Shown piece by piece: positions 1,358-56,770 of a stretch of DNA of 59,043 nucleotides. The notes below the pieces were generated by a model. The model was not told where the DNA came from. It saw only the letters and a program-made list of their open reading frames with translations, and did no database searches. Every line of letters starts with the position of its first letter. Position 1 is the first letter of the stretch. The translations under genes were made by a program, and so were the position numbers. Source of the DNA: a virus (taxonomy: Duplodnaviria; Caudoviricetes); IMG/VR virus record IMGVR_UViG_3300025137_000040, positions 1 through 59,043 of that record. The stretch is one strand, 5' to 3'.

Positions 1358-2021
1358 CTACTCTAACCCTAGGTCTGATTTTCCTGTGTCCGTCGAGTCG
1401 CCGGGCCACGAATGTTTGTGGCTTTTACACATTCCAGGCAACGCTGGTGGTAGCATTAGAAAAGTGATAGGCCAGTTTGGAGGGAATCACAGATCGTTCC
1501 ACCATCACACGGCAAGCAAAATGCTCCAAGTATTTGAGTACGCTCGTAGCAAGCAGCTTTTTGCTATCATCAGAGATCCAGTTGATCGTGCCTTGAAGGC
1601 TTGGGCTTGGTGCTCAAAGCCAAAAACTTGGGGGCCTTTGGTTTCAGATGAGGAGGCGTCTGTGTACTCGACATTATTCGGGGCCAGTGACCCGTCTTTA
1701 TTTTTCGAGTCAGTCGATTTTAATGCGCTCACAAAGATCTGCCATCACTTCACTCCGCAGGTTGATTATCTTGACGCCCCTAACATAGAGTTAATTAGCT
1801 TCGAAGACCTGCAAGAGGGGCTGGACCGTTTGGTAGACCAGTATGGTGGTAGCAGAGTAATGCTTCCCACTAAGCCAGAGCATGCCTCGGGGCGGCCTAG
1901 CTCCGACTCTCTAAGCCCGCTAGCTAAGTCTAGGATCCTCGATTTTTATTCGAGGGATTCAGACCTCCATAGAGAAATATTTCGTACCTTTTTAACCGCT
2001 CGTGAATATGCGAGCATATGA
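1347..2021 (+). CDS. Sulfotransferase family 2-like protein
   Basis: LHIPGNAGGSI (cf. HIPKxAGTS), IIRDPVDR, HFTPQ, FEDL and FYSRD motifs. Confidence 0.75.
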   Translation: MPHNYSNPRSDFPVSVESPGHECLWLLHIPGNAGGSIRKVIGQFGGNHRSFHHHTASKMLQVFEYARSKQLFAIIRDPVDRALKAWAWCSKPKTWGPLVSDEEASVYSTLFGASDPSLFFESVDFNALTKICHHFTPQVDYLDAPNIELISFEDLQEGLDRLVDQYGGSRVMLPTKPEHASGRPSSDSLSPLAKSRILDFYSRDSDLHREIFRTFLTAREYASI

Positions 2022-2055
2022 CAAACAACAAAACAACAAAACAACAACTGATATT

Positions 2056-2235
2056 ATGAACAAAGAATCTATTCTGGGTGTCGTACGTCACCTTCTCACA
2101 TTTTCGGGTGGGCTTTTGGTGACCAAGGGCATTGGCCTTGATGAACAAATGATGCTCGAAGCAGTGGGAAGTATTATCACACTCATCGGTATCGTCTGGT
2201 CTGTCCGTCAGAAGAAAAAGCCGATCGAGGGTTGA
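2056..2235 (+). CDS. Putative holin (two transmembrane helices)
   Basis: MNKESILGVVRHLLTFSGGLL... with a second hydrophobic helix and a basic C-terminus; first gene of the lysis cluster. Confidence 0.65.
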   Translation: MNKESILGVVRHLLTFSGGLLVTKGIGLDEQMMLEAVGSIITLIGIVWSVRQKKKPIEG

Positions 2236-2238
2236 TAT

Positions 2239-2487
2239 ATGACTTTGATCAAAGCTTTGGCGGCGGCGTTAAACGCGCTCGCCGCCTTTCTGAAGTACGT
2301 CTACCCAGTCAAACAGCTTAGAGAAATCCACAAGGACATTGACAACTATGAAGATCAGATTATGGAGCTTGGCCATATTGGTAATGCTCACTCCAAGCTG
2401 CAGCTGGAAGTCCTCCACAAAAGGAAGACTAGAACTGAACGACTCCTCTCTGTATTCACCTCCGACGGTGACTACCCTCCCAGGTGA
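2239..2487 (+). CDS. Putative inner-membrane spanin (Rz-like)
   Basis: N-terminal hydrophobic helix then helical domain; overlaps a lipoprotein ORF in another frame. Confidence 0.5.
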   Translation: MTLIKALAAALNALAAFLKYVYPVKQLREIHKDIDNYEDQIMELGHIGNAHSKLQLEVLHKRKTRTERLLSVFTSDGDYPPR

Positions 2488-2581
2488 GGTGTATCGATTT
2501 AAAGAGGGCAAGTTGGTCGGACGGGGGGAGCGCTTTCACTCACACGCCTCATATATGAGAGCGCTAATAATCGGCAAGTGA
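2348..2581 (+). CDS. Putative outer-membrane lipoprotein spanin (Rz1-like)
   Basis: MKIRLWSLAILVMLTPS-C lipoprotein-type signal, Pro-containing mature part; overlaps the previous ORF. Confidence 0.55.
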   Translation: MKIRLWSLAILVMLTPSCSWKSSTKGRLELNDSSLYSPPTVTTLPGEVYRFKEGKLVGRGERFHSHASYMRALIIGK

Positions 2582-2600
2582 AGTCCTAGTTTCATTGGTT

Positions 2601-3404
2601 ATGGGTAGACTAAACGAACAAAACGAGGCTGCAGTTTGGACTGAGGTTTGGAGATTGAACAACGGTCACTACGGTGAGATAGGGGAGGGTAACCGTAACC
2701 GCCTTCTATCTGTTTTCTATAGTTTACTGGACTATCCCGAGGGGGAGAGTCCTGGCACTCCGGTTCCTATTAAAGCCCTTTCCAGAGAGGCTTCCCGTCC
2801 ATTCCTTTCGGCAAACTCTATCGAAGGTTATGAGCCCCCTGAGTGGCTTGTAAGAGGAAGCGACTTCCCAATTGTGGGCCGAAGGTTTTCAGCCTCGGAG
2901 TTTGTTGAGTATTTAGGATCTGAAGACCTAGACAGTATGGAGTGGGAGCCCACTGGTATAACTGTTCATCACACCGCTTACCCCTACCTCGAGATGAGGC
3001 CAGAGGGCTTTACCGAGGCCCACATGAAAAACCTCCGGTCTTATTATAAAAACACTAGGGGATGGCGTTCAGGCCCCCATCTTTTCACGGATGACCACGG
3101 TATTTGGGTTCTCACTCCACTCACTAAGCGGGGGGTGCATGCTTCTTCTTTTAATGCTTCGAGGATAGGTATTGAAATGTTGGGAGACTTTGACCACAAA
3201 GATGATCCCGACAGCGGGAGAGGGAAGGCCTGCACTGATTTTGCTAAGTTTGCCGCTGCGGCTTTGATGAAGCACATTCCAATATCGACGGGAAAACTTA
3301 ATTTCCACAGGCACGATCCCCTAACATCAAAGTCTTGCCCCGGTAAAAAGGTCGATTTTCGCCTCTTTGAGGAGGATGTAATCTCGATTTATGATACAAT
3401 ATAA
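2601..3404 (+). CDS. Endolysin, N-acetylmuramoyl-L-alanine amidase (Amidase_2-like)
   Basis: VHHT, GVHAS, IGIEMLG, FHRH and SCPG zinc-amidase motifs. Confidence 0.85.
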   Translation: MGRLNEQNEAAVWTEVWRLNNGHYGEIGEGNRNRLLSVFYSLLDYPEGESPGTPVPIKALSREASRPFLSANSIEGYEPPEWLVRGSDFPIVGRRFSASEFVEYLGSEDLDSMEWEPTGITVHHTAYPYLEMRPEGFTEAHMKNLRSYYKNTRGWRSGPHLFTDDHGIWVLTPLTKRGVHASSFNASRIGIEMLGDFDHKDDPDSGRGKACTDFAKFAAAALMKHIPISTGKLNFHRHDPLTSKSCPGKKVDFRLFEEDVISIYDTI

Positions 3405-3415
3405 TATGCGGAAAT

Positions 3416-3676
3416 ATGATACCAAGCCAACAAAAGCCATTTAACTTAATCGGAGAGTTTCTAGAGGTACTCCATCAGGGAACTCCGACTCAGGACAAGG
3501 CCCTAGCGGGACTATCCTCAGTGTTGTCTGTAGCCCTAACGCTTTCAGATATCGCTACTTTCATTGGTGCAATTGTAGGGCTAGCCACGTTTTTTCATAT
3601 TTTAATTAGGATCAAGATAGCTCTAGTCGATTTAAAAATTAGGAGGAAGGAGTCCCATAAAGATGGCAAAGATTAA
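3416..3676 (+). CDS. Small membrane protein, possible second holin/antiholin
   Basis: Two hydrophobic segments and a basic C-terminus, directly after the endolysin. Confidence 0.45.
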   Translation: MIPSQQKPFNLIGEFLEVLHQGTPTQDKALAGLSSVLSVALTLSDIATFIGAIVGLATFFHILIRIKIALVDLKIRRKESHKDGKD

Positions 3677-8194: not shown

Positions 8195-8222
8195 TTGAAA
8201 ATACAGTAAATTCCCGTAATAT
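8195..8222 (+). promoter_or_regulatory. Putative sigma70-like promoter TTGAAA-N16-TAATAT
   Basis: In the AT-rich gap before 8234; same layout as 56575-56602. Confidence 0.5.
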
Positions 8223-8233
8223 TATACTCGCAT

Positions 8234-8911
8234 ATGGCAAACGAAAGGCCCATCACCGTAGCCGAAGGTAGAAACCTGCTTTGGCGCTATACGACCGCAG
8301 ATCAAACCGACGCCGATGGCAGGTTTCTGTTCAGACTTAACCAAGCTGTCGAGCGCATCGTATCCTCCGGTGTTTGGGAGGGCGAAAAAGAATCGGTAAA
8401 CCTTAGCAGCTACATTACAGACGAGGTCCTATCGTTGCCCTACACCTATGATACCATGATGGGGGTCCATGTGGGGGGCAGTCCGCGCACTATTTATTCA
8501 GAAGACATTGAGTTCTCTGTTAGTGGTCCCGGTGCAGTCGATCCAGGCGAGGGGGGAAACCGAGTTATTGATCTCGGCTTTGAGACAAACAGCTTAGGCC
8601 AATCTATTCGTAAATATAAGTTTTTGTCCTCTTCAGATGCCTCAGCTGAGGTTATCGGACGGTGCCGAAAACGCTTCCAGTATATGGTTAGTGACTCGGA
8701 TCTGATCCCTATCGGAAACATAGGAGCGCTCAAGAACGCTATTTTGTGCATCCACTTTGAGGACGAGGGAGACACCGACCGTGCTGAGATCTATTGGCAA
8801 CGTGCAATGAGGACGCTCAACGATGAGCGGACCCTGACCCACACTGGTGTCAACAAGCCTGCGCCTTTCCAGCCCTTCGTTACTGGAAGTAAACCCATTA
8901 GTATGTATTGA
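8234..8911 (+). CDS. Putative head-tail adaptor / tail tubular protein A-like
   Basis: Size (225 aa), helical termini around a beta core, position before the internal virion genes. Confidence 0.5.
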   Translation: MANERPITVAEGRNLLWRYTTADQTDADGRFLFRLNQAVERIVSSGVWEGEKESVNLSSYITDEVLSLPYTYDTMMGVHVGGSPRTIYSEDIEFSVSGPGAVDPGEGGNRVIDLGFETNSLGQSIRKYKFLSSSDASAEVIGRCRKRFQYMVSDSDLIPIGNIGALKNAILCIHFEDEGDTDRAEIYWQRAMRTLNDERTLTHTGVNKPAPFQPFVTGSKPISMY

Positions 8912-34845: not shown

Positions 34846-34863
34846 AATATATCCGCGTATGAT

Positions 34864-40455: not shown

Positions 40456-42200
40456 TTGGTGTAGTGCGGAGATTTGATTACTTCTGTTCCGAGTGGGAGC
40501 GATCGGATCCACTCAGGAGGGGAGGTCATAATTTTGTGTATGACCTTTGCCAATTCCTCGGCTTTGCTTTCCTCTACTTCGAAGACCACCTCATCGTGGA
40601 CCCTCAGTATCGGTTTTAAGTCTGCCTTCAGCAGTTCGAGGACACGGTCCATGAACACATCTCGGGCAAGAGCCTGAGTTGCATTCTCGACAAGTATCCC
40701 GTGCCAGACTTTGTGGCGTATCATCCGACCCCCTCGGGGCATCATTGCGCTGGTTCCATTCTTAGTGGAGACATCGCGGTAAGGGATGGACCTTCCTGAA
40801 GGGAGTGCCAGGCGGAACTCTTTGTCTGGTTCTCTGGAGGACTCCATAAAGCCTCGCTTCAGTTTTCCCCACAGCGCAACAACCTTAGGGTTGCGGTGCC
40901 GGTAGAGTTGAGTGAGCCGCTTCGCCTCATGCAGAGGGAGTCCTGCTACGGAGGCAAATCGCTCTGCACCCATCGCAAACTGACAGCCTAGGCTTAGCGC
41001 TTTGAGAGTGTCCCTTAGGTTGGGATCATTCTCTTTCAAGGGCCCTTCTTGACTGTAGAGGCCCATCGCCCTCCCAACAGCTTCATACCAGTCCACGCCC
41101 TCTTCAGCTAGTTTCAGGAGATCCCGATCACCAGCTAGCCAGGCTATTACTCTGGCTTCGATCTGACTCAGATCAGCGATGAGGAGGGTGTTGCCGGGTC
41201 TAGCCTCGATGAGGCTCCTCATATCAACACCATACAGCTGGCCTTTCGACATGTTCTGTACGTTGAAGCCCGAGTCCCCCGAGTCTCTGCCGGTGAGGTT
41301 GGCCCCAAAGTATTTCATTCCGAAGGGGAGGGTGCCATCTTTTCTGACCCGCCTCTGCATGGACTGCAACTTCTTGATCATCGCGTTGGCCCCCCTGAGA
41401 GTCCAGGTAAGCTCTAACACTTTGCCTTCTTCCGGATTTTCCTCGACCCAGTCGATCGTATCCGGATCGTCTTTGGCCATAGTGTCAGGTGGCAGCTTGT
41501 CGCGAGACCTAACCCAGTTTGCCCACTCGATAGGACTTAACGCCGCTCGGTCATCATCATGCCAAGGTATGCCATCCCTGGCCTGGGCGATAACATTGTG
41601 AAGGTGGGTAATTGAATCATCGAGCTTTTGACTGTTGATCGGCATGCCAGCCCAGCACATGCGCGTGGTTTCTCGGGAAAGTTCCCGTTCCCACTCTGGC
41701 CATGTTGGGGAAAGCTCCTTCCACAGAAGATAGCAATACTGCGAATCATCGAGCGCATACTGAGCAACCTCCTTTTGGAAGTCCTCGCTCATGGTTTCCC
41801 AATTGAGACCCTTCATGTTGTCCCGAGTGCCTTTGGATATATCAACCGAAAACACCTCTTTACAGGACTCCTTGAGAGAGCGGGGGAAGCCGTGGTAGGC
41901 AGCGCAGTCTGCAGAGCAGTGCCAATCTGCTGGACCTATACCTGGCTTTACCCAGTCGTGGCTCAACAAATTCCAGAGCCCCTCATCGAAGGACCGGTTG
42001 TGACTGATCCACGTATGTCCGCATATGCCTTCCCACGGGGCATCCTTTGGGTGTCCCACCCAGTTGAAGTCCTCGTCTCCCCAGATTGAGACCATGTAGC
42101 AGTCGAAGTCCGGGTGGTTGACATAGTTTTCCAGACCGTTGGTTATTGAACAGTCGTTTGAGTAGTATGACTCGAAGTCGATTGCGTAAGTCTTTGTCAT
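40452..42200 (-). CDS. pol: DNA polymerase family A with 3'-5' exonuclease
   Basis: IDFESY (ExoI), HNRSFD, YALDD, TGRDSG, ADLSQIEARV (motif A) and RVHDEVV (motif C). Confidence 0.92.
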   Translation of the reverse strand: MTKTYAIDFESYYSNDCSITNGLENYVNHPDFDCYMVSIWGDEDFNWVGHPKDAPWEGICGHTWISHNRSFDEGLWNLLSHDWVKPGIGPADWHCSADCAAYHGFPRSLKESCKEVFSVDISKGTRDNMKGLNWETMSEDFQKEVAQYALDDSQYCYLLWKELSPTWPEWERELSRETTRMCWAGMPINSQKLDDSITHLHNVIAQARDGIPWHDDDRAALSPIEWANWVRSRDKLPPDTMAKDDPDTIDWVEENPEEGKVLELTWTLRGANAMIKKLQSMQRRVRKDGTLPFGMKYFGANLTGRDSGDSGFNVQNMSKGQLYGVDMRSLIEARPGNTLLIADLSQIEARVIAWLAGDRDLLKLAEEGVDWYEAVGRAMGLYSQEGPLKENDPNLRDTLKALSLGCQFAMGAERFASVAGLPLHEAKRLTQLYRHRNPKVVALWGKLKRGFMESSREPDKEFRLALPSGRSIPYRDVSTKNGTSAMMPRGGRMIRHKVWHGILVENATQALARDVFMDRVLELLKADLKPILRVHDEVVFEVEESKAEELAKVIHKIMTSPPEWIRSLPLGTEVIKSPHYTK

Positions 42201-43298: not shown

Positions 43299-43378
43299 AT
43301 ATATATTTGTATTTTTCTTATTGTTTGCCTCGTGCGTCACCGGCAACCGTGCTAGGTAAATAGTATGTCCGCATATGG

Positions 43379-43578: not shown

Positions 43579-46047
43579 CTATTTAATCGCTGAGATCAGC
43601 TTAATCGGCTCTCCGTGGTGCACGGCACCGCTTTCATAGAGTTGTTTCATAACCTCCTCGACGCGCTTTTTCTTCTCACCTCTCTTTGAGTGCTTCGCTA
43701 TCAGGTCCTCGAACGCTCCGACCGGCACTCCTTTCAGTTCTTCAAGAAACTCGTCCAAAGGAACCTGATCTTTAACTAGTCCGTAGGCGGCCATAGCCGA
43801 GGTTATTTTACGGTCGCCACTTCTTTCCTTAACCTCGAAGCCAGGCACTTCGACCCCGTCTTCCAGCATTGATTTTTTAACCAGAGAATTTGTGCTTCGT
43901 ATAAACTCCTCAAGGATAGGGACTAACTTCTTACGCCTTGCCAGTTCCTCTGGGGATAGGTCGCAGCCCTCACCGCTCAGCCCAAGCTCTTCGAACTCGT
44001 CTAGGGCTTGGTGCTTAGCTACCTCTAGGGCTTTTGAAATGATTGCGGGGCAAGAACCAGCGCGAGCACAATAGTTGCACACTAGGTTAGTGGGGGAGAG
44101 AACAGCTAATAGTGCCTCCACCGATGTCTTGCCCCGCGCTTGATCCTCGAACATTTTCCTAGTCTCCTTGGCGGCTAGGATGATGTTGCGGATTTCTTCC
44201 ACCAGTTCTGCAGTGTCCTCGCGCTTGAACTGGTGGTGCAGCACTTCGTCCCGTCGGGGGATGACGAAGTAAAAGTCTACCGTTTGTATTTCAGGAAATT
44301 TTTGAAAGGCCCCCAGCGTGTAGGCTTTCGCTTGGAAGTTTTGCCCGGCTGGGTCAATTTTACCCACGCCGGTCTTGTAATCAATTTTGACCGCTTCTTT
44401 GCCCTTAACTAAAAGTACGTCACTCGTACCGAATGTCGAAAGTTCACCACCGAGGTCCATCTCTAGTCGGATCTCGTTGTAGTGGTCGCAGTCTTCGAAC
44501 ATATGCGACCGTATGATGGACTGGACACAGTTAAAGCACATCTGAGCGAGCGACTCTTCATAGTCATTGAGCGCTGTCCAGTCTCCAGTCTCGAGCGCGT
44601 CATGTATGCGGGTTCCCATCTCTGCTGCTGGGTTTGTTCCCCCTCGGTTGGCGTAGCCGGGACATTTGCGAAACATCTTCAAAGATGAAGGTCCAAATTG
44701 AGCGTGCTTCATTTCAGATGATACGGCTTTTTCTTCGGTTGGCATACGGCTACTAATACTATTTAATACGGGTTTTTCGTGAAGCAAACTAATATTTTCA
44801 CTTTTCTTAATCATTGCGGAGGAAACCTTCTCCTCAATAGTTCTGGCAGCTACCAAAACTCGCTGAACTGATTCACTCATTCCGCCTAGGCGGTCAATTC
44901 TGCCCAGGGTCTGAGACCAGTCCTCAGCGTTGTAAGTCGGTGATATTAGGGAGATTCTAGGGTGGTTACCATTTACGTCGTGGAGGCTCACTCCAACACC
45001 CCCTGCAGCGATGTTGGCCAGTATTACCGGCACCTCATCGCTTTGAAATCGCTCGATGGCTGAAGTTCGTTCTTCGGAACTTTGTCCTCCCCTAATAAAA
45101 ACAAAGGGAAGTTTCATTCTCCGCTCTATCGCATCCAGCGTGTCGGAGAAGTTCACAAACACCGCGACGTGCTTTCCGGTGTCCACCTCGTCGTTTACCA
45201 TCTCGACTATGTCTGGAACCTTTAACAGTTCAATCTGCTGTCTTAGCCGAAGGATTCTTGTCAGAGCGATTGGCTTGTCTCCGTCTCCCTCTCTTCGCGT
45301 GTCCAGAACCTCTAGTTCATCCTCGAGGTCGGCACACAGCTTCTCGATTTTTGCAGAGTCTCCAAAGTCTAGGCCTTCAGTTGAAATACTGGTTTGAGTG
45401 AAGTGGTCCCCCATATCTTCCCGCGTGAGACGGTGCCCTCGACCTGGGTAAATAAGCTCATTTAGTTTTTTCAGATTGCCCCTCGATTTATCAGGGAATT
45501 GGGCCGACCCGAAGGTATCAAAGGTGACTCCGAAGCGCTTTGCCCAAGCCCAGAAATCTCTGAGCTTATGCAGCCCAAGCGCATATCCAATCGCTTTCAG
45601 GTCTCGCGGGTCTTTGGCTGCCGTCGCCGACAACATAAGTACGCGAAACCCCTGGCTTTTTGCGGAGCACAGCAGCTTTGAGTTGAGGGACTTAACCCCT
45701 TTGCTTTTGTGAACCTCATCGAAAATCACGAGTGATCCTTCTGGTAGACTCCACTCCATAGACTGCCGGTTTCTTTTTACCCAAGGGGTATTGCCAGTCC
45801 TGAGCTTTTCATAGTTGATAACCTCAAGGACGTTGACCCCCTGCTCCTCAAAGGCTGATCGCCACGAGGGGACCACAACTTTTGGGCAAACCACAAATGC
45901 GTTGCAACCTAGCGACCTTGCGATTTCTACCGCCTTGAGAGTCTTACCGGTACCCGTATCAGAGCTATCGAGTGCTGCTCCATGTGAATGCAGGGCCGAG
46001 AGTAGGCTATCGTGACTCTCCTGCTGTGGTGGGAAGAGGGTCTTCAC
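43579..46047 (-). CDS. SF2 (SNF2-like) helicase fused to DUF2800/Cas4-like PD-(D/E)XK nuclease
   Basis: DTGTGKT, FDEVH, LSAT, GGVGVSL, QTLGRIDR; then HAQFGPSS...CPG, GTRIH, GTSD, IDYKTG, CNYC...C. Confidence 0.85.
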   Translation of the reverse strand: MKTLFPPQQESHDSLLSALHSHGAALDSSDTGTGKTLKAVEIARSLGCNAFVVCPKVVVPSWRSAFEEQGVNVLEVINYEKLRTGNTPWVKRNRQSMEWSLPEGSLVIFDEVHKSKGVKSLNSKLLCSAKSQGFRVLMLSATAAKDPRDLKAIGYALGLHKLRDFWAWAKRFGVTFDTFGSAQFPDKSRGNLKKLNELIYPGRGHRLTREDMGDHFTQTSISTEGLDFGDSAKIEKLCADLEDELEVLDTRREGDGDKPIALTRILRLRQQIELLKVPDIVEMVNDEVDTGKHVAVFVNFSDTLDAIERRMKLPFVFIRGGQSSEERTSAIERFQSDEVPVILANIAAGGVGVSLHDVNGNHPRISLISPTYNAEDWSQTLGRIDRLGGMSESVQRVLVAARTIEEKVSSAMIKKSENISLLHEKPVLNSISSRMPTEEKAVSSEMKHAQFGPSSLKMFRKCPGYANRGGTNPAAEMGTRIHDALETGDWTALNDYEESLAQMCFNCVQSIIRSHMFEDCDHYNEIRLEMDLGGELSTFGTSDVLLVKGKEAVKIDYKTGVGKIDPAGQNFQAKAYTLGAFQKFPEIQTVDFYFVIPRRDEVLHHQFKREDTAELVEEIRNIILAAKETRKMFEDQARGKTSVEALLAVLSPTNLVCNYCARAGSCPAIISKALEVAKHQALDEFEELGLSGEGCDLSPEELARRKKLVPILEEFIRSTNSLVKKSMLEDGVEVPGFEVKERSGDRKITSAMAAYGLVKDQVPLDEFLEELKGVPVGAFEDLIAKHSKRGEKKKRVEEVMKQLYESGAVHHGEPIKLISAIK

Positions 46048-46592: not shown

Positions 46593-46911
46593 GCTGGAGC
46601 ACTTTAACAATCTCCTCAAAGTCCGACGCTGACATGACCACTATCTCCCCTTGATTCGGGATCTTATGATATACGATATTATATGATTCATCGCCCGGCA
46701 TATGGGCGAGGACCTTTCTGAAGTTAGGCTGATTTTTTGTCCGCTTCGCCTGAACGTGGAGCGGGGGAGTCTCAACAAAATCAACTCCCATATCGTCCAT
46801 CATCTTCGAGGCGAACCGAGAGGTTTGACAGTTTTCCCAACCCAGCCCAATAAAGCGTTTTCGAAGCTCTCGCTCGTAAGCGTGTCCGACTTGACGGCTA
46901 TTTACTGGCAT
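46573..46911 (-). CDS. Holliday junction resolvase-like PD-(D/E)XK nuclease
   Basis: NSRQVGHAYERE...GVDF...HVQAKR. Confidence 0.7.
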   Translation of the reverse strand: MPVNSRQVGHAYERELRKRFIGLGWENCQTSRFASKMMDDMGVDFVETPPLHVQAKRTKNQPNFRKVLAHMPGDESYNIVYHKIPNQGEIVVMSASDFEEIVKVLQHEKIWK

Positions 46912-47366
46912 CAGTTGAGTCTTTCAGTGAAAGGGACTTTGTAGGCGGGAGTATGGCGACCTATGTTTTGCCTTTTGTATGTGCCTCTAATTGAAGACTT
47001 TCTCCTAGCCATGGCTATGGCAAGGTCCTTATCAATTCTAACGACTCCACCAATGCGAATGTGTGGCAGATCGTTTTCGTTATCACACAAGGCTCTACGT
47101 ATAGTGTCTGGGTGAACCCGTATAAGCTTGGCGAACTCTGTTGTTGTCAGCCAGTTCTCTGAGTCCTCCGTTGTTTCAAATTCTTTTTTCATTTCCGAAA
47201 CTCGGTACCTGACTACATTTTTCAGGAAAGTGTAGGAGGGTAGCATGCCCGACTCGTGAATCGTTCTAAAACCCCCCTCGGTGAGGTTAAATGTCTCTTT
47301 AAGCTCTCGCTTTGTAAGCCATTCACTAGAGCTAGCAGTCCGCAGAGTTGGTAGCTCCCGCTTCAT
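46911..47366 (-). CDS. Excisionase-like protein with two HTH_17-type domains
   Basis: WLTKRELKETF...VVRYR and WLTTTEFAKLIRVHPDTIRR...RIGGVVRI. Confidence 0.7.
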   Translation of the reverse strand: MKRELPTLRTASSSEWLTKRELKETFNLTEGGFRTIHESGMLPSYTFLKNVVRYRVSEMKKEFETTEDSENWLTTTEFAKLIRVHPDTIRRALCDNENDLPHIRIGGVVRIDKDLAIAMARRKSSIRGTYKRQNIGRHTPAYKVPFTERLN

Positions 47367-47656
47367 TTTCCTACCAGTTTTCTGGTGGCTCTGGTTATTA
47401 AGTCACCAACCTCCAAATTATTTTCGACACAAAATTGAACTAGGTCTTGATATTCTTCCTCAGGCAGGTCTACTTGCATTTTTTTAAAGCCCCTTAAATT
47501 TTCAGGATCCTTAATAGCTTTAAGTATGAGTGAGGACACGAGTTGAGATAATGAACTTCCCTGGTTCGCGGCATAGGCCTTACCTTCCTCTACGACATGC
47601 TTTGACATACTTAGAGTCAGTTTGTATGGGTCTTTTAAGGTCTTGGGTCTTGGCAT
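47363..47656 (-). CDS. Ribbon-helix-helix regulator (DUF6364-like), Cro-position gene
   Basis: KLTLSMSKHVVEEGKAYAANQGSSLSQLV; a second RHH-like segment starts KMQVDLPEEEY. Confidence 0.65.
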   Translation of the reverse strand: MPRPKTLKDPYKLTLSMSKHVVEEGKAYAANQGSSLSQLVSSLILKAIKDPENLRGFKKMQVDLPEEEYQDLVQFCVENNLEVGDLITRATRKLVGK

Positions 47657-47808: not shown

Positions 47809-48327
47809 ATGAGATCCAAAACCAAAGACCCCGTGAAGGTTACACTCAGCTTGCACCGCCCTGTAAAGGAGCTTGGTCAAAGCCTGGCAAAACAAAAGAA
47901 CAAATCGTTGACTGCCCTAGTGGAGAGCCTAATCCTGTCGGAGGCGAGATCCTCTAGCCATCCTGAACTAGCTACGACTAGTCCAAAGTTATTGGGTGAA
48001 GTGCCTGGAGTTAGAGACCGTGGTAGTGGCGATTCCATTACGGTTTCTACTGACGGTTTGGCCGCTTCCTACTTGAAGGACCTAGCTTGTTTTAAGGCCT
48101 CAGAGAGTAGTTTCTACCCTTGCTCGAAGCCCTTCAAGAAGGGTCAATATTTACTGGTGGTGAGTATTGACCCACGCCCAGGTGACGTTGTCATTGTGTC
48201 AAAAGGTAAACTGCAAACTGTGGCCGAGGTGACCCCCTCTGGATCACTTGAACCTATCTTTAGGGAGGGAAGTGTGGACGAATACAGCGCCTCCTATGTA
48301 GTCCTGAGAGTAGATGAGGGGCCTTAA
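47809..48327 (+). CDS. Repressor-like protein: N-terminal RHH plus degenerate S24/LexA-like C-terminal domain
   Basis: KVTLSLHRPVKELGQSLAKQKNKSLTALV; C-terminal KKGQYLLVV...PRPGDVVIV pattern; divergent from the replication operon. Confidence 0.55.
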   Translation: MRSKTKDPVKVTLSLHRPVKELGQSLAKQKNKSLTALVESLILSEARSSSHPELATTSPKLLGEVPGVRDRGSGDSITVSTDGLAASYLKDLACFKASESSFYPCSKPFKKGQYLLVVSIDPRPGDVVIVSKGKLQTVAEVTPSGSLEPIFREGSVDEYSASYVVLRVDEGP

Positions 48328-48542
48328 CCCTTCTTTTGGTTGTCCTGAACGTAGTTTCTCACAGCCCTTCGGACGATGTCAGATACGGTTAGGTACTCTT
48401 CGCCAGCCATTTTTTCAATGGCAGTGTAGACACTGGAGTCCTCTATATATGAGATTCTTCGCCTTCCGCTGGCGACTCCCCCAGTACCTGCTTCCGAGTC
48501 CCCAAGACCCCCGATTGATTTTTTACTTCTTTTTATAGCCAT
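48324..48542 (-). CDS. CopG/Arc-like RHH protein
   Basis: RRISYIEDSSVYTAIEKMAGEEYLTVSDIVRRAVRNY; directly downstream of the integrase. Confidence 0.65.
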   Translation of the reverse strand: MAIKRSKKSIGGLGDSEAGTGGVASGRRRISYIEDSSVYTAIEKMAGEEYLTVSDIVRRAVRNYVQDNQKKG

Positions 48543-48546
48543 GCTT

Positions 48547-49707
48547 TTAAGAGTTTTCAGGAGGTAAAATGTTAAACCACCTTTCTGCGTCAGACCCAAA
48601 TGTTATAGCCTTGTATGCACTTTGCAAGGTTGATACTGAGTGTCCAGATAGCTCGGCGGTCAGGTGAGCATTCTTGAATCTACAAAGATGGTAGCTCGCA
48701 AAACTGTGTCTCATTGCATTGTGCGGCATTCCTACACCGGCAAGCTTGAATACCTTTTTCAGTTCTGGGTGGACCTTTGAGAAGGGGGCGATCCTACCCT
48801 TTTCTTTCTTATACTTTAACAGCCAGGCCTTAAGGTTGGGAGGCATGTCAACTACTCGCCTCCGCGAAGTTTTAGTGATAGAGCTTGAGAGTGGCACCGC
48901 CTCTTCTTCCCAGTTGAGGTCTTCCCACTTCAGTCGGTCTCGCTCAGCAGATCTCAGACCTCCAAAAGCCCCTAGGACTGTCCAGGCAACTAGTCGAGGC
49001 TCCACTTCTTCCATCTTCATTAAGACTCTTTCCATTTCGGAAGGGGTGAGAATACCGGGGTCTTCTTTTTTAAATACTATATCGGTGGTCTTTTCTGCGG
49101 CATGCGGCTCATTGTAGGTAAGGTAGCCCGATTTTCGAGCCCAGTTGAACAGCCCCATGTAATAATTGCGGATATTTTTTCTCGTTCTCCGGTTTCTAGT
49201 CTGGGCCAGCTGTGCTTCGAGGTGCGCTGGCCCAACCAGTGCTAGTGGCATCCTCAAGTTTTTAGCCAGAGGGCCTAGTGCCCACCGAAGGGTCTCATAA
49301 TACCTAGGAGAGTTTTGCTCTTTGGTGATGAGGTATTTATCCACAACTTCGCTGAGGGTGGCGTGCTCGAGGTGGGCTTCATCTTTCATTCCCATCACAA
49401 ATGAGTCAACTGCCTGGAGTAGGGTTGCTCCCCCTCCTTTCTCCCGCAGTAGCTGCTCACAATATTGCCAGTTGAATATCTGATCTTCCGTTACCGAGAG
49501 TCGATTGGCTGCATGCTCCTTATCGTATGCGACTTCTTCAGCAAGTGCTCTCGCTCGGGTTGGGTCATTACGCCTGACTCGTTTTATTTCTTTTCCAATT
49601 TTGTATCTTACCTCATAAACATCTCTGCCTCTCGATTGGGTTTTATAGACTGTTGCGTGGAATGGTTTTTTTCCAATAACAATAGGGTAGGTAGTTTTTT
49701 TCCGCAT
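48547..49707 (-). CDS. int: Tyrosine integrase
   Basis: GLRSAE (R), TKT (K), HNAMRH (HxxR), GHS and AYK (Y) catalytic motifs. Confidence 0.92.
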   Translation of the reverse strand: MRKKTTYPIVIGKKPFHATVYKTQSRGRDVYEVRYKIGKEIKRVRRNDPTRARALAEEVAYDKEHAANRLSVTEDQIFNWQYCEQLLREKGGGATLLQAVDSFVMGMKDEAHLEHATLSEVVDKYLITKEQNSPRYYETLRWALGPLAKNLRMPLALVGPAHLEAQLAQTRNRRTRKNIRNYYMGLFNWARKSGYLTYNEPHAAEKTTDIVFKKEDPGILTPSEMERVLMKMEEVEPRLVAWTVLGAFGGLRSAERDRLKWEDLNWEEEAVPLSSSITKTSRRRVVDMPPNLKAWLLKYKKEKGRIAPFSKVHPELKKVFKLAGVGMPHNAMRHSFASYHLCRFKNAHLTAELSGHSVSTLQSAYKAITFGSDAERWFNILPPENS

Positions 49708-49890: not shown

Positions 49891-49998
49891 TACATCCAGA
49901 TCTTATATATAATGGGCCCTGCAGCTTTACAAGGATTACTTGCAGGAAAGTAATCGTCTTTTATTTAAGCCTATTAGGCAGTTGCATTTTCAATACAT

Positions 49999-51747
49999 AT
50001 GCGGGTATACTATAATGTGCCCATTGAAAAATACGGCTTGCGGTTTCCAGACGGGACTTTGCCAGAGACAATTGAGCTTTTCGCATACCGCCAAGGCCGC
50101 AGCGTTTCTCAGGGAGGTCTAGGCAAGTTCGGCCATCTCAAGCAAGCAATTGACCTAATATGGAACTCAGGTAACTCATCGCGAGAATTTATTTGGTCTC
50201 CCGAAGCCGAGGAGATATTGAGAGCGTTCAGCGAGGAGGATTATGTTGCTGTTGCCGGTAGCGCCTCATCCGGTAAAAGCGATGCCTCTGCGGTGTGGGC
50301 TCTGTGTGAATTTTTCTCCGGGCCTGCAGATACCCTGGTATTAGTTACCTCAACTACTCTGCGAGAGGCGAGGAGGCGAATATTCAAATCCATTTCGGAA
50401 CTTTACTTTGCTTTGCCCAAAGGCAAGTTCCCTGGAAAAATGGTGGACTCCCTTGGCCAGTTGAAGGGACTCGATGCCCAAGGTAACTTCAGTGCCGCGA
50501 CCGGTATCGTATTGGTGCCAGCCGAGAAAAAGAAGGAGCGTGAGGCAATCGGTAAGCTCGCTGGAATAAAACAGGCCCGTGTACGCCTCGTCGCCGACGA
50601 ACTCCCCGAATTGTCCGAAGCCGTGGTCACTACGGCATACTCTAACCTGTCATCTAACCCGGACTTTAAAATGGTTGGTCTCGGCAACCCCGCGTCCCAC
50701 TTCGATGCCTTTGGTGTTTTCGCTAAACCGAAGGCTGGGTGGGATTCTGTAACAGAAGGGGACTTTTCATGGGAAACTTCACGGGGAATTTGCATTCGCC
50801 TCGACGGCACTAAGTCTGAGAACTACATCCAGCGTAAGCAGATTTATCCCTGGATGTATAGCTATGATAAAATCGAACAGCTACGGGAAGACTATGGGGA
50901 GGACTCTGCATTTTTCTACAGAATGGTTAGGGGGTTCTGGGCACCCGAAGGTTCGGCCAATGGTATATATTCCGAGTCAGATCTGGTGAAAGGGAGTGTG
51001 ACCCGAAAAGCCCGCTTTGATTCAGAGCCCACGGTGGTGGCCGCCTTGGATCCAGCCTTTACTCACGGCGGTGACCGATCAATTCTTTACTTCGGGCGGC
51101 TTGGTGATGAGGCTGGCGTCCGAATTCTAGAACTAGATGGGTATGTTTCAATCAAAGAGGACATCAACAACACAGCAATTCCGAGGACTCATCAGGTGGC
51201 TAGAGAAGTGAAGAGGGAGTGTGTTAATAGAGGAGTCCTTCCCCAGAACATGGCGGTCGATGAAACTGGGGCGGGGGGTCCCTTCGCTGATGTCTTAGCT
51301 ATGGAGTGGTCAGACAGGTTCCTGAGAGTCAACTTCGCCGGTAAAGCCTCCAGCATGAAGGTTTCAGCTAGTGATAAAACTAAAGGCTATGACCGTTATT
51401 CCAATCGGGTTTCAGAGTTGTGGTTCGCCGGTAAAGAACTGTTACGTTCTTCTCAGCTCAGAAACATCCAAGATGATCTAGCTAAAGAAATGGTTGCCAG
51501 AGAGTTCTCAACACTATCTGGAGGCAAGGTTAAAGTAGAGTCCAAAATAGATTACAAGGCAAGAATGGGACGATCCCCGGATCTTGCGGACGCCGCCTTT
51601 ATTCTAACTGATCTGTGCAGGCAACGTCACGGTTTAGTTGGTGGAGAGCGGTTTGAAGCGAGCCAGGATAGGCAGGCTGTTTGGAATGCGAAGATGAAGA
51701 AGTTAGATATCTTGGCTGATTCCGACCGGAATCTACTTAACTATTGA
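49999..51747 (+). CDS. terL: Terminase large subunit
   Basis: AGSASSGKS Walker A, LVADE Walker B, GLGNP, ALDPA and SPDLADA nuclease motifs. Confidence 0.92.
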   Translation: MRVYYNVPIEKYGLRFPDGTLPETIELFAYRQGRSVSQGGLGKFGHLKQAIDLIWNSGNSSREFIWSPEAEEILRAFSEEDYVAVAGSASSGKSDASAVWALCEFFSGPADTLVLVTSTTLREARRRIFKSISELYFALPKGKFPGKMVDSLGQLKGLDAQGNFSAATGIVLVPAEKKKEREAIGKLAGIKQARVRLVADELPELSEAVVTTAYSNLSSNPDFKMVGLGNPASHFDAFGVFAKPKAGWDSVTEGDFSWETSRGICIRLDGTKSENYIQRKQIYPWMYSYDKIEQLREDYGEDSAFFYRMVRGFWAPEGSANGIYSESDLVKGSVTRKARFDSEPTVVAALDPAFTHGGDRSILYFGRLGDEAGVRILELDGYVSIKEDINNTAIPRTHQVAREVKRECVNRGVLPQNMAVDETGAGGPFADVLAMEWSDRFLRVNFAGKASSMKVSASDKTKGYDRYSNRVSELWFAGKELLRSSQLRNIQDDLAKEMVAREFSTLSGGKVKVESKIDYKARMGRSPDLADAAFILTDLCRQRHGLVGGERFEASQDRQAVWNAKMKKLDILADSDRNLLNY

Positions 51748-51790
51748 TTTTGATAATACGCGAGCATATGCTACCATAGAATTAAAACTA

Positions 51791-55785: not shown

Positions 55786-55953
55786 ATGAAAACGATAAAC
55801 GACTATTTTACCGCACTACTTTTTCTCGCTCAAACCGCGATGATACTTTATCCAGGCTACCGGATGATCAAATCCGTGTTTTATGATCGCCTGGGCTCTC
55901 GGAGGATTAAAACGAGCGCGACTTATTTGACCCCAAAGACTGAATGGTTATGA
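55786..55953 (+). CDS. Tiny membrane protein
   Basis: 55-aa ORF MKTINDYFTALLFLAQTAMILY...; ATGA-coupled to the next gene. Confidence 0.45.
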   Translation: MKTINDYFTALLFLAQTAMILYPGYRMIKSVFYDRLGSRRIKTSATYLTPKTEWL

Positions 55954-56129
55954 AAAAAGCTGCGAAAAAAGCTACGAAAAAACAACTGACTGATCGTCAA
56001 AAGCAAACTCTCAAACGCCACAGTGTACATCACACGGCCAAACACATGGCCGAAATGAGAAGTATGATGCAGGGAGGCAAAACATTTACCGCTGCCCACA
56101 AAGCGGCAATGAAAAAAGTCGGACGATAA
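55950..56129 (+). CDS. Tiny basic His/Met-rich protein
   Basis: HSVHHTAKHM...AHKAAM; coupled on both sides. Confidence 0.65.
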   Translation: MKKAAKKATKKQLTDRQKQTLKRHSVHHTAKHMAEMRSMMQGGKTFTAAHKAAMKKVGR

Positions 56130-56401
56130 TGCCTTCAAAAAGTAAAGAAGGCGCTGCCCTTAAGAGATGGTTCAAGGAGGAGTGGACCGATGTCCGCACG
56201 GGCAAGCCCTGTGGAAGGAAGAAGGGCGAGAAGCGCGGAACTCCCTATTGTAGGCCGAAGAAACGTGTTTCTTCAAAGACGCCGAAGACGGTCAGTGAGC
56301 TTTCTCCTGCGGAAAAGCGCAGCAGAATAAACCAAAAGAAACGCCTAGGCCAGCCACCCGGCAAGCCAAGGCGAGTTAAACCAGTAAAACGGAGGAAATA
56401 G
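56129..56401 (+). CDS. Small basic protein (LKRWFKEEW...PCGR...YCRP; DUF5872-like)
   Basis: Motif recognition; very K/R-rich. Confidence 0.7.
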   Translation: MPSKSKEGAALKRWFKEEWTDVRTGKPCGRKKGEKRGTPYCRPKKRVSSKTPKTVSELSPAEKRSRINQKKRLGQPPGKPRRVKPVKRRK

Positions 56402-56403
56402 CC

Positions 56404-56517
56404 ATGTCACCAGGAAAATACGGCAATACGAAGCCCCCCAAGAAGAAGACCGCGATGAAAAAAGCAGCTTCAAAATCTAAAACGGGAGCCAAGAAAAACC
56501 CGAGGCGTCGTAAGTGA
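56404..56517 (+). CDS. 37-aa Lys-rich peptide
   Basis: MSPGKYGNTKPPKKKTAMKKAASKSKTGAKKNPRRRK; fills the gap before a terminator. Confidence 0.55.
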   Translation: MSPGKYGNTKPPKKKTAMKKAASKSKTGAKKNPRRRK

Positions 56518-56523
56518 TTCATC

Positions 56524-56562
56524 AAAACCCCCTCTGGGTTTATTATCTAGAGGGGGTTTTTC
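56524..56562 (+). terminator. Intrinsic terminator (possibly bidirectional)
   Basis: aaaaccccctctgg...ctagagggggttttt. Confidence 0.75.
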
Positions 56563-56574
56563 TTAATAATTAGG

Positions 56575-56602
56575 TTGACCTGACCATAAGTAAAAGTAAT
56601 AT
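56575..56602 (+). promoter_or_regulatory. Putative capsid promoter TTGACC-N16-TAATAT
   Basis: Follows the terminator; same layout as 8195-8222. Confidence 0.55.
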
Positions 56603-56770
56603 TACATTGGGTAGTGGATCCCATAAGCCACCGTTTTAACAGCGCATAATGCCTTATTTGGGGCCCCTCCGGGCGCAGGAGATTGTAGTATTCCGTTTAT
56701 CATATGCTAATATATGATAATTCGGTCAACCTTATTTAATTCAATACCCTAAGGAGGGGTTTTTTTAACA

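What the first reader, a model, noticed from the sequence alone, without database searches (positions are those of the whole stretch)
2005..56716. Genome-wide CATATG-N4-CATATG operator-like motif at gene starts and promoters
Seen: the exact 9-mer CCGCATATG/CATATGCGG occurs at least 10 times (25051, 25061, 27146, 29525, 30216, 33606, 35204, 42019, 43369, 49996), against about 0.45 expected at uniform composition. The 16-mer CATATGCGGTCATATG is at 25051 (+) and 27139 (-). Variants with the same 10-bp spacing are at 2005 AATATGCGAGCATATG, 3403 AATATGCGGAAATATG, 8221 ATTATACTCGCATATG, 34846, 36087 GATATGCGGTCATATC, 42012 and 43362 (sharing GTATGTCCGCATATG), 44500, 47664, 49777, 51755 and 56701. 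Most are intergenic or overlap start codons, and two sit inside promoter spacers (int, portal). They precede lysis, tail, early, terS, SSB, terL, portal and capsid genes. Known: RHH dimers such as Arc, MetJ and CopG bind short sites in tandem, and mycobacteriophage L5 spreads 'stoperators' across its genome. Inference: one phage RHH protein may silence both early and late genes through 15-20 distributed sites. Caveat: a lone CATATG can arise from CAT+ATG start context, but that does not explain the CGG extension or the spacing.
Basis: partly seen in the sequence, partly recalled or inferred. Interest (0 to 1): 0.8.

Follow-up and report, generated by a model that had tools for sequence, protein, structure and literature searches.

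The report
Distributed CATATGCGG operator-like motif in phage
A short DNA word, CATATGCGG usually followed by a second CATATG-like half, is scattered about 18 times between the genes of an uncultured marine temperate phage and is conserved in a close relative, so it is most likely a binding site through which one phage protein controls many genes at once.

Summary
CCGCATATG/CATATGCGG occurs 10 times against 0.37 expected. The 16-mer with up to 2 mismatches occurs 13 times against 1.29. Eight of the 10 exact copies touch non-coding DNA, which is 8% of the genome.

A relative with about 87% nucleotide identity (L117) carries 11 ATATGCGG in 21 kb. Across 10 orthologous sites the 9-mer core is identical at 88 of 90 positions, against 84.7% for other aligned non-coding DNA.

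The window is a whole 59-kb marine temperate phage. Sites lie just after stop codons, ahead of A/C-rich leaders. They also lie inside or on sigma-70-like promoters of the terL, terS-like, portal and 8234 genes.

Three relatives without the integrase/RHH module keep the terL and terS-like promoters but lack the motif. Another temperate relative has a different 13-bp palindrome in four copies.

Best reading (0.5): a lineage-specific operator for a phage regulator, analogous to L5 stoperators. The binder is unknown. A general RNA hairpin role is unlikely.

The parts
2005..2020 (+). Site AATATGCGAGCATATG. It overlaps the TGA stop (2019-2021) of the 224-aa gene. A G-free A/C leader follows, then the holin start at 2056.
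3403..3418 (+). Site AATATGCGGAAATATG. It fills the gap between the endolysin stop (3402-3404) and the ATG at 3416, which is the ATG of the second half-site.
8221..8236 (-). Site in reverse orientation (CATATGCGAGTATAAT on the - strand). On the + strand it spans a -10-like TATACT and the ATG at 8234. A promoter-like TTGAAA-N16-TAATAT lies at 8195-8222.
25051..25076 (+). Two tandem 10-bp units, CATATGCGGT CATATGCGGT. They are opposite to the local genes and overlap the start (25063) of a 62-aa gene.
27139..27154 (-). Perfect site CATATGCGGTCATATG in the gap before the GP88-like gene. Homology with the relative L117 begins exactly at 27154.
29500..29545 (-). Repeat element with a 17-bp-stem palindrome holding CATATGCGG (29525-29533). 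It is one of two direct copies that flank a 691-bp cassette.
30190..30236 (-). Second copy of the palindromic repeat element (CATATGCGG at 30216-30224).
33584..33619 (-). Palindrome GCCAGCATATG-N14-CATATGCTGGC before the ATPase gene. In L117 only the loop differs.
34846..34861 (-). Variant CATACGCGGATATATT. It fills the 18-nt gap between two small genes.
35194..35212 (-). Site CATATGCGGGTGGCATATT, 2 nt after a stop codon and followed by a long A/C leader. A homology block with L117 starts at 35226.
36087..36116 (+). Three tandem 10-bp units, GATATGCGGT CATATCCGGT TATCATATGG. They lie in the 59-nt divergent gap and occupy the spacer and -10 of TTGATA-N16-TATCAT, 5 nt before the terS-like ATG at 36118.
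42012..42027 (-). Site CATATGCGGACATACG inside the DNA polymerase A reading frame. It is 16 of 16 conserved in L117.
43362..43377 (-). Site CATATGCGGACATACT, 1 nt after the stop of a 65-aa gene.
44500..44515 (+). Site CATATGCGACCGTATG inside the helicase/exonuclease gene, opposite to its direction.
49996..50011 (+). Site CATATGCGGGTATACT in the spacer and -10 of the terL promoter. The tool called TTTTCA-N18-TATAAT. By eye I read TTGCAT-N18-TATACT-N5-GTG, with the GTG at 50017.
51755..51770 (+). Variant AATACGCGAGCATATG between terL and portal, inside the promoter-like TTGATA-N16-TACCAT.
56701..56716 (+). Variant CATATGCTAATATATG, 55 nt before the 420-aa gene and about 100 nt downstream of the promoter-like TTGACC-N16-TAATAT.
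47363..47656 (-). Candidate binder: 97-aa RHH protein (DUF6364, Arc-like), first gene of the leftward early operon.
47809..48327 (+). Candidate binder: 172-aa protein with a weak N-terminal RHH match, divergent from the early operon (the position typical of a repressor gene).
48324..48599 (-). Candidate binder: small CopG-type RHH protein just downstream of the integrase gene.
46911..47366 (-). Candidate binder: 151-aa HTH_17 protein (excisionase/MerR-like).
36118..36627 (+). Candidate binder or terS: 169-aa protein with a terS-like N-terminal HTH. Its promoter holds the triple unit.

Best explanation
The motif is a lineage-specific operator on double-stranded DNA. Its unit is the 9-mer CATATGCGG. 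A second CATATG-like half usually follows, most often 10 bp away centre to centre. I propose that a phage-encoded dimeric or tetrameric DNA-binding protein binds it. That protein probably belongs to the lysogeny/regulatory module: one of the RHH proteins or the HTH_17 protein. The terS-like HTH protein is an alternative.

The roughly 18 copies sit in two kinds of place. Some lie in the spacer, -10 or start region of sigma-70-type promoters of late genes (terL, terS-like, portal, 8234, 3416). Others lie at gene junctions along the long leftward early operon. One protein could therefore hold many transcription units down at once, by blocking initiation at promoters and perhaps elongation at junctions.

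Because the same conserved words head many gene cassettes, they also act as points of homologous exchange.

Shown here: enrichment, intergenic bias, conservation, position relative to promoter-like sequences and to mosaic junctions, and absence from relatives that lack the module. Inferred: protein binding, the identity of the binder, and repression.
For: 1. Enrichment and intergenic bias. There are 10 copies against 0.37 expected, and 13 against 1.29 for the dyad. Eight of 10 touch non-coding DNA against an 8% background.

2. Selection. L117, an independent metagenome contig with 83-91% identity in most long aligned blocks and 79% in one, holds 11 ATATGCGG in 21,083 nt. Motif positions are 153 of 164 identical. 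The 9-mer cores are 88 of 90 identical. The other 1,276 aligned non-coding positions are 84.7% identical (p 7e-4 and 5e-5).

3. Promoter context. The tool's promoter-like hits at 36085-36112, 49987-50016, 51750-51777 and 8195-8222 carry the motif in the spacer or -10.

4. Relatives without the module. G001 and G002 keep a -35/-10 pair 5 nt before the terL GTG. G001 and G003 keep one 5-7 nt before the terS-like ATG. Their spacers have no motif (my reading of the printed sequence). G001-G003 hold 0-2 ATATGCGG each. All three have only about 730-760 nt between helicase and terL, so they lack the 3.9-kb integrase/RHH/HTH_17 module.

5. A parallel case. The temperate relatives L037 and L048 (integrase present) carry a different perfect 13-bp palindrome, GGTGACAGTCACC, four times in 15-17 kb. 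One copy is in the spacer of the tool-called TTGACG-N16-TAATAT. L037's module also has an HTH_17 protein and a weak RHH-like protein.

6. Most sites do not fold as RNA, which favours recognition of duplex DNA.

7. Position 5 varies T/C (CATACG at 34846, 51755 and in L117's copy of 25051) without a matching change in the partner half.
Against: - No binding data exist, and no tool here can model protein-DNA contacts.
- The immunity switch region has other repeats: a 16-bp perfect inverted repeat and WATACGTW words. It has only a 12-of-16 look-alike of the motif at the leftward early promoter.
- The spacing of the second half varies (4, 7 or 14 nt). That is awkward for a rigid dimer-of-dimers.
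- The CGG extension makes the site asymmetric, and 15 of 20 copies point with transcription. This also fits a promoter or an RNA element.
- The early-region sites lack a -35. Promoter-like hits are not enriched in that region: 11 found against 16.0 expected.
- The absence of the motif from G001-G003 is confounded with their distance (about 51-58% amino-acid identity).
- L116 and L117 are 99.7% identical, so conservation rests on one independent relative.
- Whether L117's phage has the lysogeny module is unknown, because that part could not be fetched.
Confidence: 0.5

Rival explanations
1. The motif is itself the core of a phage-specific promoter. CATATGCGG would be an upstream element, and the hexamer 3 nt after CGG (TATGAT, TACTAT, TAATAT, TATTAT, TATGCT and similar) would be a -10. 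Host RNA polymerase would read it, perhaps with a phage factor. Transcripts would start just downstream and carry the A/C-rich leader as their 5' UTR.
For: - The layout stop codon, motif, A/C leader, ATG recurs at 2005, 27139, 29518, 30209, 33599 and 35194, and at two sites in L117.
- 15 of 20 ATATGCG are co-oriented with transcription.
- By my reading, about half of the sites have a TAnnnT hexamer 3 nt after CGG.
- Homology with L117 starts at or just before the motif at 27154 and 35226, as expected for the head of a transcription unit.
Against: - The -10-like hexamer is missing or poor at 27139, 2005, 42012, 29518, 33599 and 36087.
- There is no consistent -35.
- The gaps that follow the strong terminators (42540-42512, and the 37931-38331 gap) carry no motif.
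- At terL and the terS-like gene the promoter exists in relatives without the motif.
- Four or five sites are reversed or lie inside genes.
- No sigma factor or RNA polymerase was recognised among the 53 different open reading frames of the window that I scanned against Pfam or PHROGs. The remaining frames of my 70-gene model were not scanned.
Confidence: 0.25
2. The element works in RNA or in single-stranded DNA. The two CAUAUG halves would pair into a hairpin that acts as a processing site, a stability element, an attenuator or a protein-binding loop.
For: - Three sites lie in strong hairpins: 29500-29545 (z -8.8), 30190-30236 (z -7.7) and 33570-33630 (z -5.7).
- In L117 their changes fall in the loops only.
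- At 36087 both outer bases are changed together (GATATG...CATATC), which keeps the pairing.
- The variable spacing (4, 7 or 14 nt) is natural for loops.
- The distant relative G001 has CCCCC-N8-11-GGGGG hairpins at similar intergenic places.
Against: - Five of 8 folded sites are no better than shuffles (z -1.7 to +1.1).
- The second half departs from complementarity at 43362, 42012, 49996, 8221, 34846 and 51755.
- L117's CATATG to CATACG change at the 25051 site breaks a pair.
- Reversed sites would give a different loop.
- None of the sites is followed by a T run on the transcribed strand. The only terminator-like call is antisense, at 30214-30231.
Confidence: 0.1
3. The word has no regulatory role. 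It would be a recombination linker, or a small selfish repeat spread between gene cassettes. Alternatively it would be a by-product of start-codon context (CAT+ATG) together with a few duplications.
For: - The copies at 29518 and 30209 sit in a duplicated element of about 60 nt.
- Contigs of three studies join 29499 to 30191, skipping 691 nt with 25 shared letters.
- Mosaic junctions with L117 fall at 27154 and 35226.
- The ATG of a CATATG is the start codon at 3416, 8234 and 25063.
Against: - Apart from the one duplicated pair, the flanks of the sites are unrelated, so the copies are not transposed repeats.
- The 9-mer is conserved more strongly than its surroundings.
- Start-codon context does not explain CGG or the second half. 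Most sites are not at start codons.
- A linker role does not exclude a regulatory one. T4-type PeSLs have both, according to the abstracts of PMC2839356 and PMC4122927.
Confidence: 0.07

Closest known systems
Stoperators and operators of cluster A mycobacteriophages (L5, TipsytheTRex)
   Same: - One short motif occurs in more than twenty copies across a temperate phage genome.
- Copies lie both in promoters and in short intergenic spaces of early and late operons.
- Orientation correlates with transcription.
- The proposed role is to silence initiation and elongation.
(From passages of PMC9283540 read.)

Here there are about 18 sites. Eight of 10 exact copies are non-coding, and sites lie in promoter spacers and at gene junctions.
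   Different: - L5 sites are 13-mer asymmetric sequences bound by a monomer with an HTH domain plus a 'stoperator' domain. This motif is a pseudo-palindrome with two CATATG halves.
- The regulators recognised here are RHH and HTH_17 proteins.
- The early switch region carries other repeats.
- Orientation bias is weaker.
- The host is unknown and marine, not a mycobacterium.
PeSLs (promoter-early stem-loops) of T4-type phages
   Same: Both are small conserved regulatory cassettes between small non-essential genes, and recombination between copies causes indels and module swaps (abstracts of PMC2839356 and PMC4122927). Here a 691-bp cassette is lost by exchange between the 29518 and 30209 copies in contigs of three studies. 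Homology blocks with L117 start at two sites.
   Different: PeSLs are strong sigma-70 promoters joined to effective stem-loop terminators. Here only 3 of about 18 sites are strong hairpins, none has a T run on the sense strand, and most early sites lack a -35.
Ribbon-helix-helix operators (Arc, Mnt, MetJ, CopG, NikR)
   Same: From my own knowledge, not checked in a paper here: RHH dimers read short, often palindromic subsites, and neighbouring dimers bind about one helical turn apart. CATATG-N4-CATATG has that geometry, and the phage encodes two or three RHH proteins.
   Different: Known RHH operators are local, with one or a few per regulon. This would be a genome-wide set. The spacing is not fixed (4, 7 or 14 nt). 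Binding was not tested.
Conserved inverted repeats (CIRs) bound by the phiC31 repressor
   Same: A palindromic operator is copied into many intergenic regions of the early genes of a temperate phage, next to promoters.
   Different: phiC31 is a Streptomyces phage with a different repressor type. I could not check details such as copy number or position here.

Membership tests
L5-type stoperator system | Many copies of one motif spread over the whole phage genome | tested here: met
   There are 10 exact 9-mers against 0.37 expected, and 14 ATATGCGG. Sites run from 2005 to 56716, in early and late regions.
L5-type stoperator system | Sites in promoters and in short intergenic spaces | tested here: met
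   Eight of 10 exact copies touch non-coding DNA against an 8% background. Promoter-like hits carry the motif at 36085, 49987, 51750 and 8195.
L5-type stoperator system | Asymmetric site whose orientation follows the direction of transcription | tested here: inconclusive
   15 of 20 ATATGCG are co-oriented, and 8 of 11 non-coding ones. The site is pseudo-palindromic, with asymmetry only in CGG.
L5-type stoperator system | The same consensus serves as operator at the early lytic promoter | tested here: not met
   The switch region 47657-47808 has a 16-bp perfect inverted repeat and WATACGTW words, and no CATATGCGG. By eye there is a 12-of-16 look-alike in the spacer of the promoter-like hit at 47690-47662.
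L5-type stoperator system | Bound by the immunity repressor, which blocks elongation | not testable with these tools
   There is no protein-DNA tool and no RNA run.
T4-type PeSL | Composite of a strong sigma-70 early promoter and a stem-loop terminator | tested here: not met
   Early-region sites lack a -35. Promoter-like hits number 11 against 16.0 expected. Only 3 of 8 folded sites are strong hairpins. No sense-strand terminator was called at any site.
T4-type PeSL | Copies flank variable genes and mediate indels by recombination | tested here: met
   The joint 29499 to 30191 (691 nt skipped, 25 letters shared) is seen in runs X2, X4 and X5. Block ends with L117 fall at 27154 and 35226.
RHH operator | Short palindromic subsites in tandem, plus an RHH protein encoded by the element | tested here: met
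   The ATATG-N4-CATAT dyad is the top inverted 5-mer pair in the genome. This is geometry only.
RHH operator | Specific binding by the RHH protein | not testable with these tools
   No binding assay or protein-DNA model is available.
N4-type hairpin promoter with virion RNA polymerase | A giant virion protein that contains an RNA polymerase domain | tested here: inconclusive
   The 3602-aa ORF has no Pfam, PHROG or PDB sequence match. It has no DxDGD-like motif, and residues 901-2900 gave no Atlas hit. Its fold was not tested.
N4-type hairpin promoter with virion RNA polymerase | Short stable hairpin (5-7 bp stem, 3-nt loop; recalled) at early promoters only | tested here: not met
   Most sites give 4-6 weak A/U pairs with a 4-nt loop and are not better than shuffles. 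Sites also precede late genes.
Intrinsic terminator | G+C-rich hairpin followed by a T run on the transcribed strand | tested here: not met
   No site is among the sense-strand terminator-like calls. The only one is antisense, at 30214-30231.

The most novel reading that the evidence does not exclude
The sites are strand-specific DNA hairpin or cruciform promoters: a 6-bp CATATG stem with a conserved CGGN loop. They would be read by a so far unrecognisable polymerase activity in the 3602-aa protein (12046-22854). The strategy would resemble that of phage N4, but extended to a whole temperate genome. The outputs would be the uniform, G-free A/C-rich leaders that replace Shine-Dalgarno sites in this phage family.
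Probability: 0.05. Interest if true: 0.9.

Novelty: new member of a known kind. Interest (0 to 1): 0.5.

Why it matters
If one phage protein reads these sites, genome-wide silencing through distributed operators would not be limited to actinobacteriophages. It would also occur in a large, uncultured, mostly marine phage family. That family has 871 portal homologues in the protein collection, and 350 relatives were confirmed among IMG/VR contigs.

Different temperate lineages carry different palindromes. The family could therefore serve to study how immunity or regulatory specificities diversify.

The same words mark cassette boundaries and an observed 691-bp indel. This links regulation to mosaic evolution.

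In practice, the motif gives ready-made targets for EMSA or DAP-seq. It also gives a way to assign function to small RHH and HTH proteins in metagenomic phages.

Tried and rejected
- Close cultured relatives. Megablast of 12 kb found nothing in 'phages'. tblastn with terL gave at most 24% identity, to actinophages.
- Portal single-protein scan of IMG/VR: no pattern hit. An alignment scan gave 80 loci (350 confirmed). None of the 80 has more than 3 ATATGCGG, and none has an exact CATATG-N4-CATATG.
- Exact 16-mer scan of IMG/VR: 18 contigs with one hit each, consistent with chance. None is related to the window by tblastn. A tblastx attempt printed nothing, so I replaced it with tblastn.
- Genome-contig scan: only 4 MAG fragments with mixed labels, so no host could be named.
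- No tRNA gene.
- No RNA holder was listed for the stretch, so expression and transcript ends could not be examined.
- Read laying printed only 40 of 697 variant rows, all before 25768. Population variation at the sites could not be read. The contigs served only for joints.
- Giant ORF as RNA polymerase: no support from Pfam, PHROGs, PDB sequences, a motif regex or the Atlas.
- Rejected on geometry or sequence, from my own recall of consensus sites: Chi-like site, methylase or restriction site, nick site, and host factor boxes (Fur, LexA, NtcA, CRP/FNR, PhoB, NrdR). None was tested against a database.
- A palindrome upstream of the terS-like gene in G001 and G003 (GTAGTAT-N3-ATACTAC) proved to be single-copy, so it is not a distributed analogue.
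- The TGCTAGCA enrichment in L034 and L027 looks mostly coding and was not pursued.
- Supplements of PMC9283540 (site lists) were not available to me.

Full report
**What the window is.** The window is the whole record, 59,043 bp. Genes run rightward from 1 to 22,854. This block holds a holin at 2056-2235, an endolysin at 2595-3404 and a 3602-aa ORF at 12046-22854 with no family match. Genes run leftward from 22,855 to 49,707. This block holds DNA polymerase A, a helicase/exonuclease, a primase-like protein, an ATPase, an HNH protein, many small genes, an HTH_17 protein, RHH proteins and an integrase. Genes run rightward again from about 50,000, with terL, portal and head genes. The phage is therefore temperate. 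It has no close cultured relative. Its portal has 871 homologues, some of them from a marine survey (Tara), and 350 related IMG/VR stretches with at most 57% identity. Runs holding near-identical DNA are labelled marine or viral metagenomes. No host could be named.

- The 9-mer occurs 10 times against 0.37 expected.
- The dyad with up to 2 mismatches occurs 13 times against 1.29.
- ATATGCGG is the only non-A/C-rich word among the twelve commonest 8-mers, with 14 copies.
- ATATG-N4-CATAT is the commonest inverted 5-mer pair.
- With a 70-gene model (92.5% coding), 8 of 10 CATATGCGG, 10 of 14 ATATGCGG and 11 of 20 ATATGCG touch non-coding DNA, against an 8% background.
Sites 8221 and 34846 are real by their core, although they have 3 dyad mismatches.

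**Anatomy.** When the sites are aligned on the core, the unit is (C/A)ATA(T/C)GCG(G/A). A second (C/T)ATA(T/C)N half usually follows after 4 nt. The spacer is 7 nt at 29518, 30209 and 35194, and 14 nt at 33599. At 25051 two 10-bp units stand in tandem, and at 36087 three do.

In the leftward early region the usual layout is as follows. A stop codon comes first. The motif follows 1-25 nt later. Then comes a G-poor A/C-rich leader, often with (ACCAAC)n-like repeats, and then the ATG.

In the rightward late regions the motif overlaps promoter-like sequences:
- TTGATA-N16-TATCAT before the terS-like gene.
- TTTTCA-N18-TATAAT at terL. By eye I read TTGCAT-N18-TATACT-N5-GTG, with the GTG at 50017.
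- TTGATA-N16-TACCAT before portal.
- TTGAAA-N16-TAATAT before the gene at 8234.

Two sites lie inside genes (42012 in polA, 44500 in the helicase), and a half-site lies at 19196.

**Conservation.** A scan of metagenome contigs with the ATPase protein found L117 (from a 59,772-bp contig) and L116, which is 99.7% identical to L117 and so not independent. In most long aligned blocks L117 is 83-91% identical to the window (79% in one), with replaced segments between them. It holds 11 ATATGCGG in 21,083 nt, and these include two sites the window lacks. One of those has the layout stop, motif, A/C leader.

Over 17,221 aligned positions identity is 86.8%. Non-coding positions outside the motif are 84.7% identical (1,276 positions). 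Motif positions are 93.3% identical (153 of 164). The 9-mer cores are 88 of 90 identical (p 7e-4 and 5e-5 against the non-coding rate). At 27139 and 35197 the sequence upstream of the motif is unrelated between the two phages, while the motif and the leader are kept. The element is therefore under selection.

**DNA or RNA?** Three sites are parts of long palindromes that fold strongly (z -8.8, -7.7 and -5.7). The other five tested are no better than shuffles (z -1.7 to +1.1). The second half often departs from complementarity, and one change in L117 breaks a pair. A general RNA hairpin role is therefore unlikely. The simplest reading is recognition of duplex DNA by a protein with two-fold symmetry. 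The joint change at 36087 (G...C) and the variable spacing are the best points for the hairpin view.

**Operator or promoter?** Three more distant relatives were read whole: G001, G002 and G003 (53, 48 and 47 kb; about 51-58% amino-acid identity in helicase, terL and portal). They have only about 730-760 nt between helicase and terL. They therefore lack the window's 3.9-kb block, which holds the 191-aa and 112-aa genes, HTH_17, the RHH proteins and the integrase. They hold 0-2 ATATGCGG each, and I found no equivalent high-copy dyad.

G001 and G002 nevertheless keep a -35/-10 pair ending 5 nt before the terL GTG. G001 and G003 keep one ending 5-7 nt before the terS-like ATG (my reading). This suggests leaderless or nearly leaderless messages. 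In the window the same promoters exist, but their spacers are filled with the motif. This is what an operator laid on a pre-existing promoter looks like. It argues against the motif being the promoter itself at these genes.

In the early region the sites have no -35, and promoter-like hits are not enriched (11 against 16.0). The gaps after the two strong terminators have no motif. There the sites could act as roadblocks, or as factor-dependent promoters. I cannot tell which.

**A family habit?** Twenty-four of the 80 IMG/VR loci have an integrase upstream of terL. In two of them, L037 and L048, a perfect 13-bp palindrome, GGTGACAGTCACC, occurs four times in 15-17 kb. One copy is in the spacer of the tool-called TTGACG-N16-TAATAT after the 396-aa head-region gene. 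By eye another lies between a weak -35 and -10 at the terL/next-gene junction. L037's module has an HTH_17 protein and a weak RHH-like protein next to the integrase. Different temperate lineages thus seem to have their own multi-copy palindromes. This is suggestive, but it rests on few cases.

**Who binds?** This is unknown. Candidates are the 97-aa RHH protein, the 172-aa protein with a weak RHH start, the small CopG-type RHH protein after the integrase, the HTH_17 protein, and the terS-like HTH protein whose own promoter holds the triple unit. The terS-like protein is also present in G001 and G003 at about 30% identity, which lack the motif.

The switch region between the divergent RHH genes carries a different 16-bp perfect inverted repeat. 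WATACGTW words are also concentrated there and in three other places: the integrase-terL gap, the 37931-38331 gap, and 25079 (7 of 11 WATACGTW and 8 of 13 ATACGT are non-coding). The protein that runs the switch may therefore differ from the one that reads CATATGCGG. This is the main departure from the L5 model, where operator and stoperators share one consensus.

**Mosaic role.** Contigs from three studies join 29499 to 30191, removing 691 bp between the two palindromic copies, with 25 shared letters at the joint. Together with the block ends at 27154 and 35226, this resembles the exchange role described for T4-type PeSLs (abstracts). The composite promoter-terminator definition of a PeSL is not met here.

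**Verdict.** The motif is a functional cis-element, which I hold at about 0.9. It is most likely a distributed operator tied to the phage's regulatory or lysogeny module (0.5). A phage-specific promoter core (0.25), an RNA or ssDNA hairpin role (0.1) and a non-regulatory repeat (0.07) are the rivals. It is a new member of a known kind, distributed operators and stoperators, in an unstudied marine phage family. Interest is 0.5.

**Sources.** Passages of PMC9283540 were read. The abstracts and outlines of PMC2839356 and PMC4122927 were read. Statements on phiC31 CIRs, N4 hairpin promoters and RHH operator geometry are recalled, not checked.

Noticed in passing
window 23700-36060 (- strand gene starts), e.g. 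26087-26148, 28105-28144, 29113-29139, 35137-35190; also L117 and G001: Early genes have no Shine-Dalgarno site. Instead they have G-poor, A/C-rich leaders, often tandem repeats such as (CCAACTTA)n or (ACCAAC)n, directly before the ATG. Of 44 minus-strand genes, 17 have at most 1 G in the 25 nt upstream, against 1.6% of background 25-mers, and 1 of 44 has an SD-like word. Relatives show the same habit with other repeats, such as AAAACCC and CCATCCAA.
   Followed up: partly
window 47657-47808, 49780-49812, 37963-37972, 25079-25085: There is a second regulatory word set. A 16-bp perfect inverted repeat, ATTGTCTATCAAATAC...GTATTTGATAGACAAT, lies in the switch region. WATACGTW words, some palindromic, also cluster there and at the other listed places. 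8 of 13 ATACGT are non-coding. These are probably the operators of the immunity switch.
   Followed up: partly
window 12046-22854: A 3602-aa open reading frame has no Pfam, PHROG or PDB sequence match, and no Atlas hit for residues 901-2900.
   Followed up: partly
window 49979-50019 and 36085-36120; G001, G002, G003 equivalents: In the window and its relatives, the -10 hexamers of the terL and terS-like promoters end 5-7 nt before the start codon. This suggests leaderless or nearly leaderless messages. terL probably starts at the GTG at 50017, not the ATG at 49999, because G001 and G002 have an in-frame stop upstream of the equivalent GTG.
   Followed up: partly
window 29499-30191: A 691-bp cassette (the 131-aa gene region) is absent from contigs of three studies. 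It was lost between two direct copies of the palindromic element.
   Followed up: yes
window 46044-49707 versus G001, G002, G003: The whole block from the 191-aa gene to the integrase (about 3.9 kb) is missing from three relatives, where helicase and terL lie about 730-760 nt apart. 24 of 80 more distant loci have an integrase at this place.
   Followed up: partly
L034 and L027 (whole loci): The palindrome TGCTAGCA occurs 7 times in each locus of 17-20 kb, where about 0.3 would be expected by length. Many copies appear to be in coding sequence, and some are at orthologous places.
   Followed up: no
G001:C1:9700-39100 (- strand gaps): Intergenic gaps hold CCCCC-N8-11-GGGGG hairpins without a T run. 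Many genes start with ...ATACCTATG. A 35-nt word ending in that context occurs three times.
   Followed up: no
window 58766-58882: A tandem repeat of ACAGGGAAT units (about five copies) lies in a non-coding stretch near the right end of the record.
   Followed up: no
window 42512-42540 (-), 58063-58098 (+), about 38250-38290 (-): Strong intrinsic-terminator-like hairpins with T runs mark likely operon ends. The gaps after them carry no CATATGCGG.
   Followed up: partly
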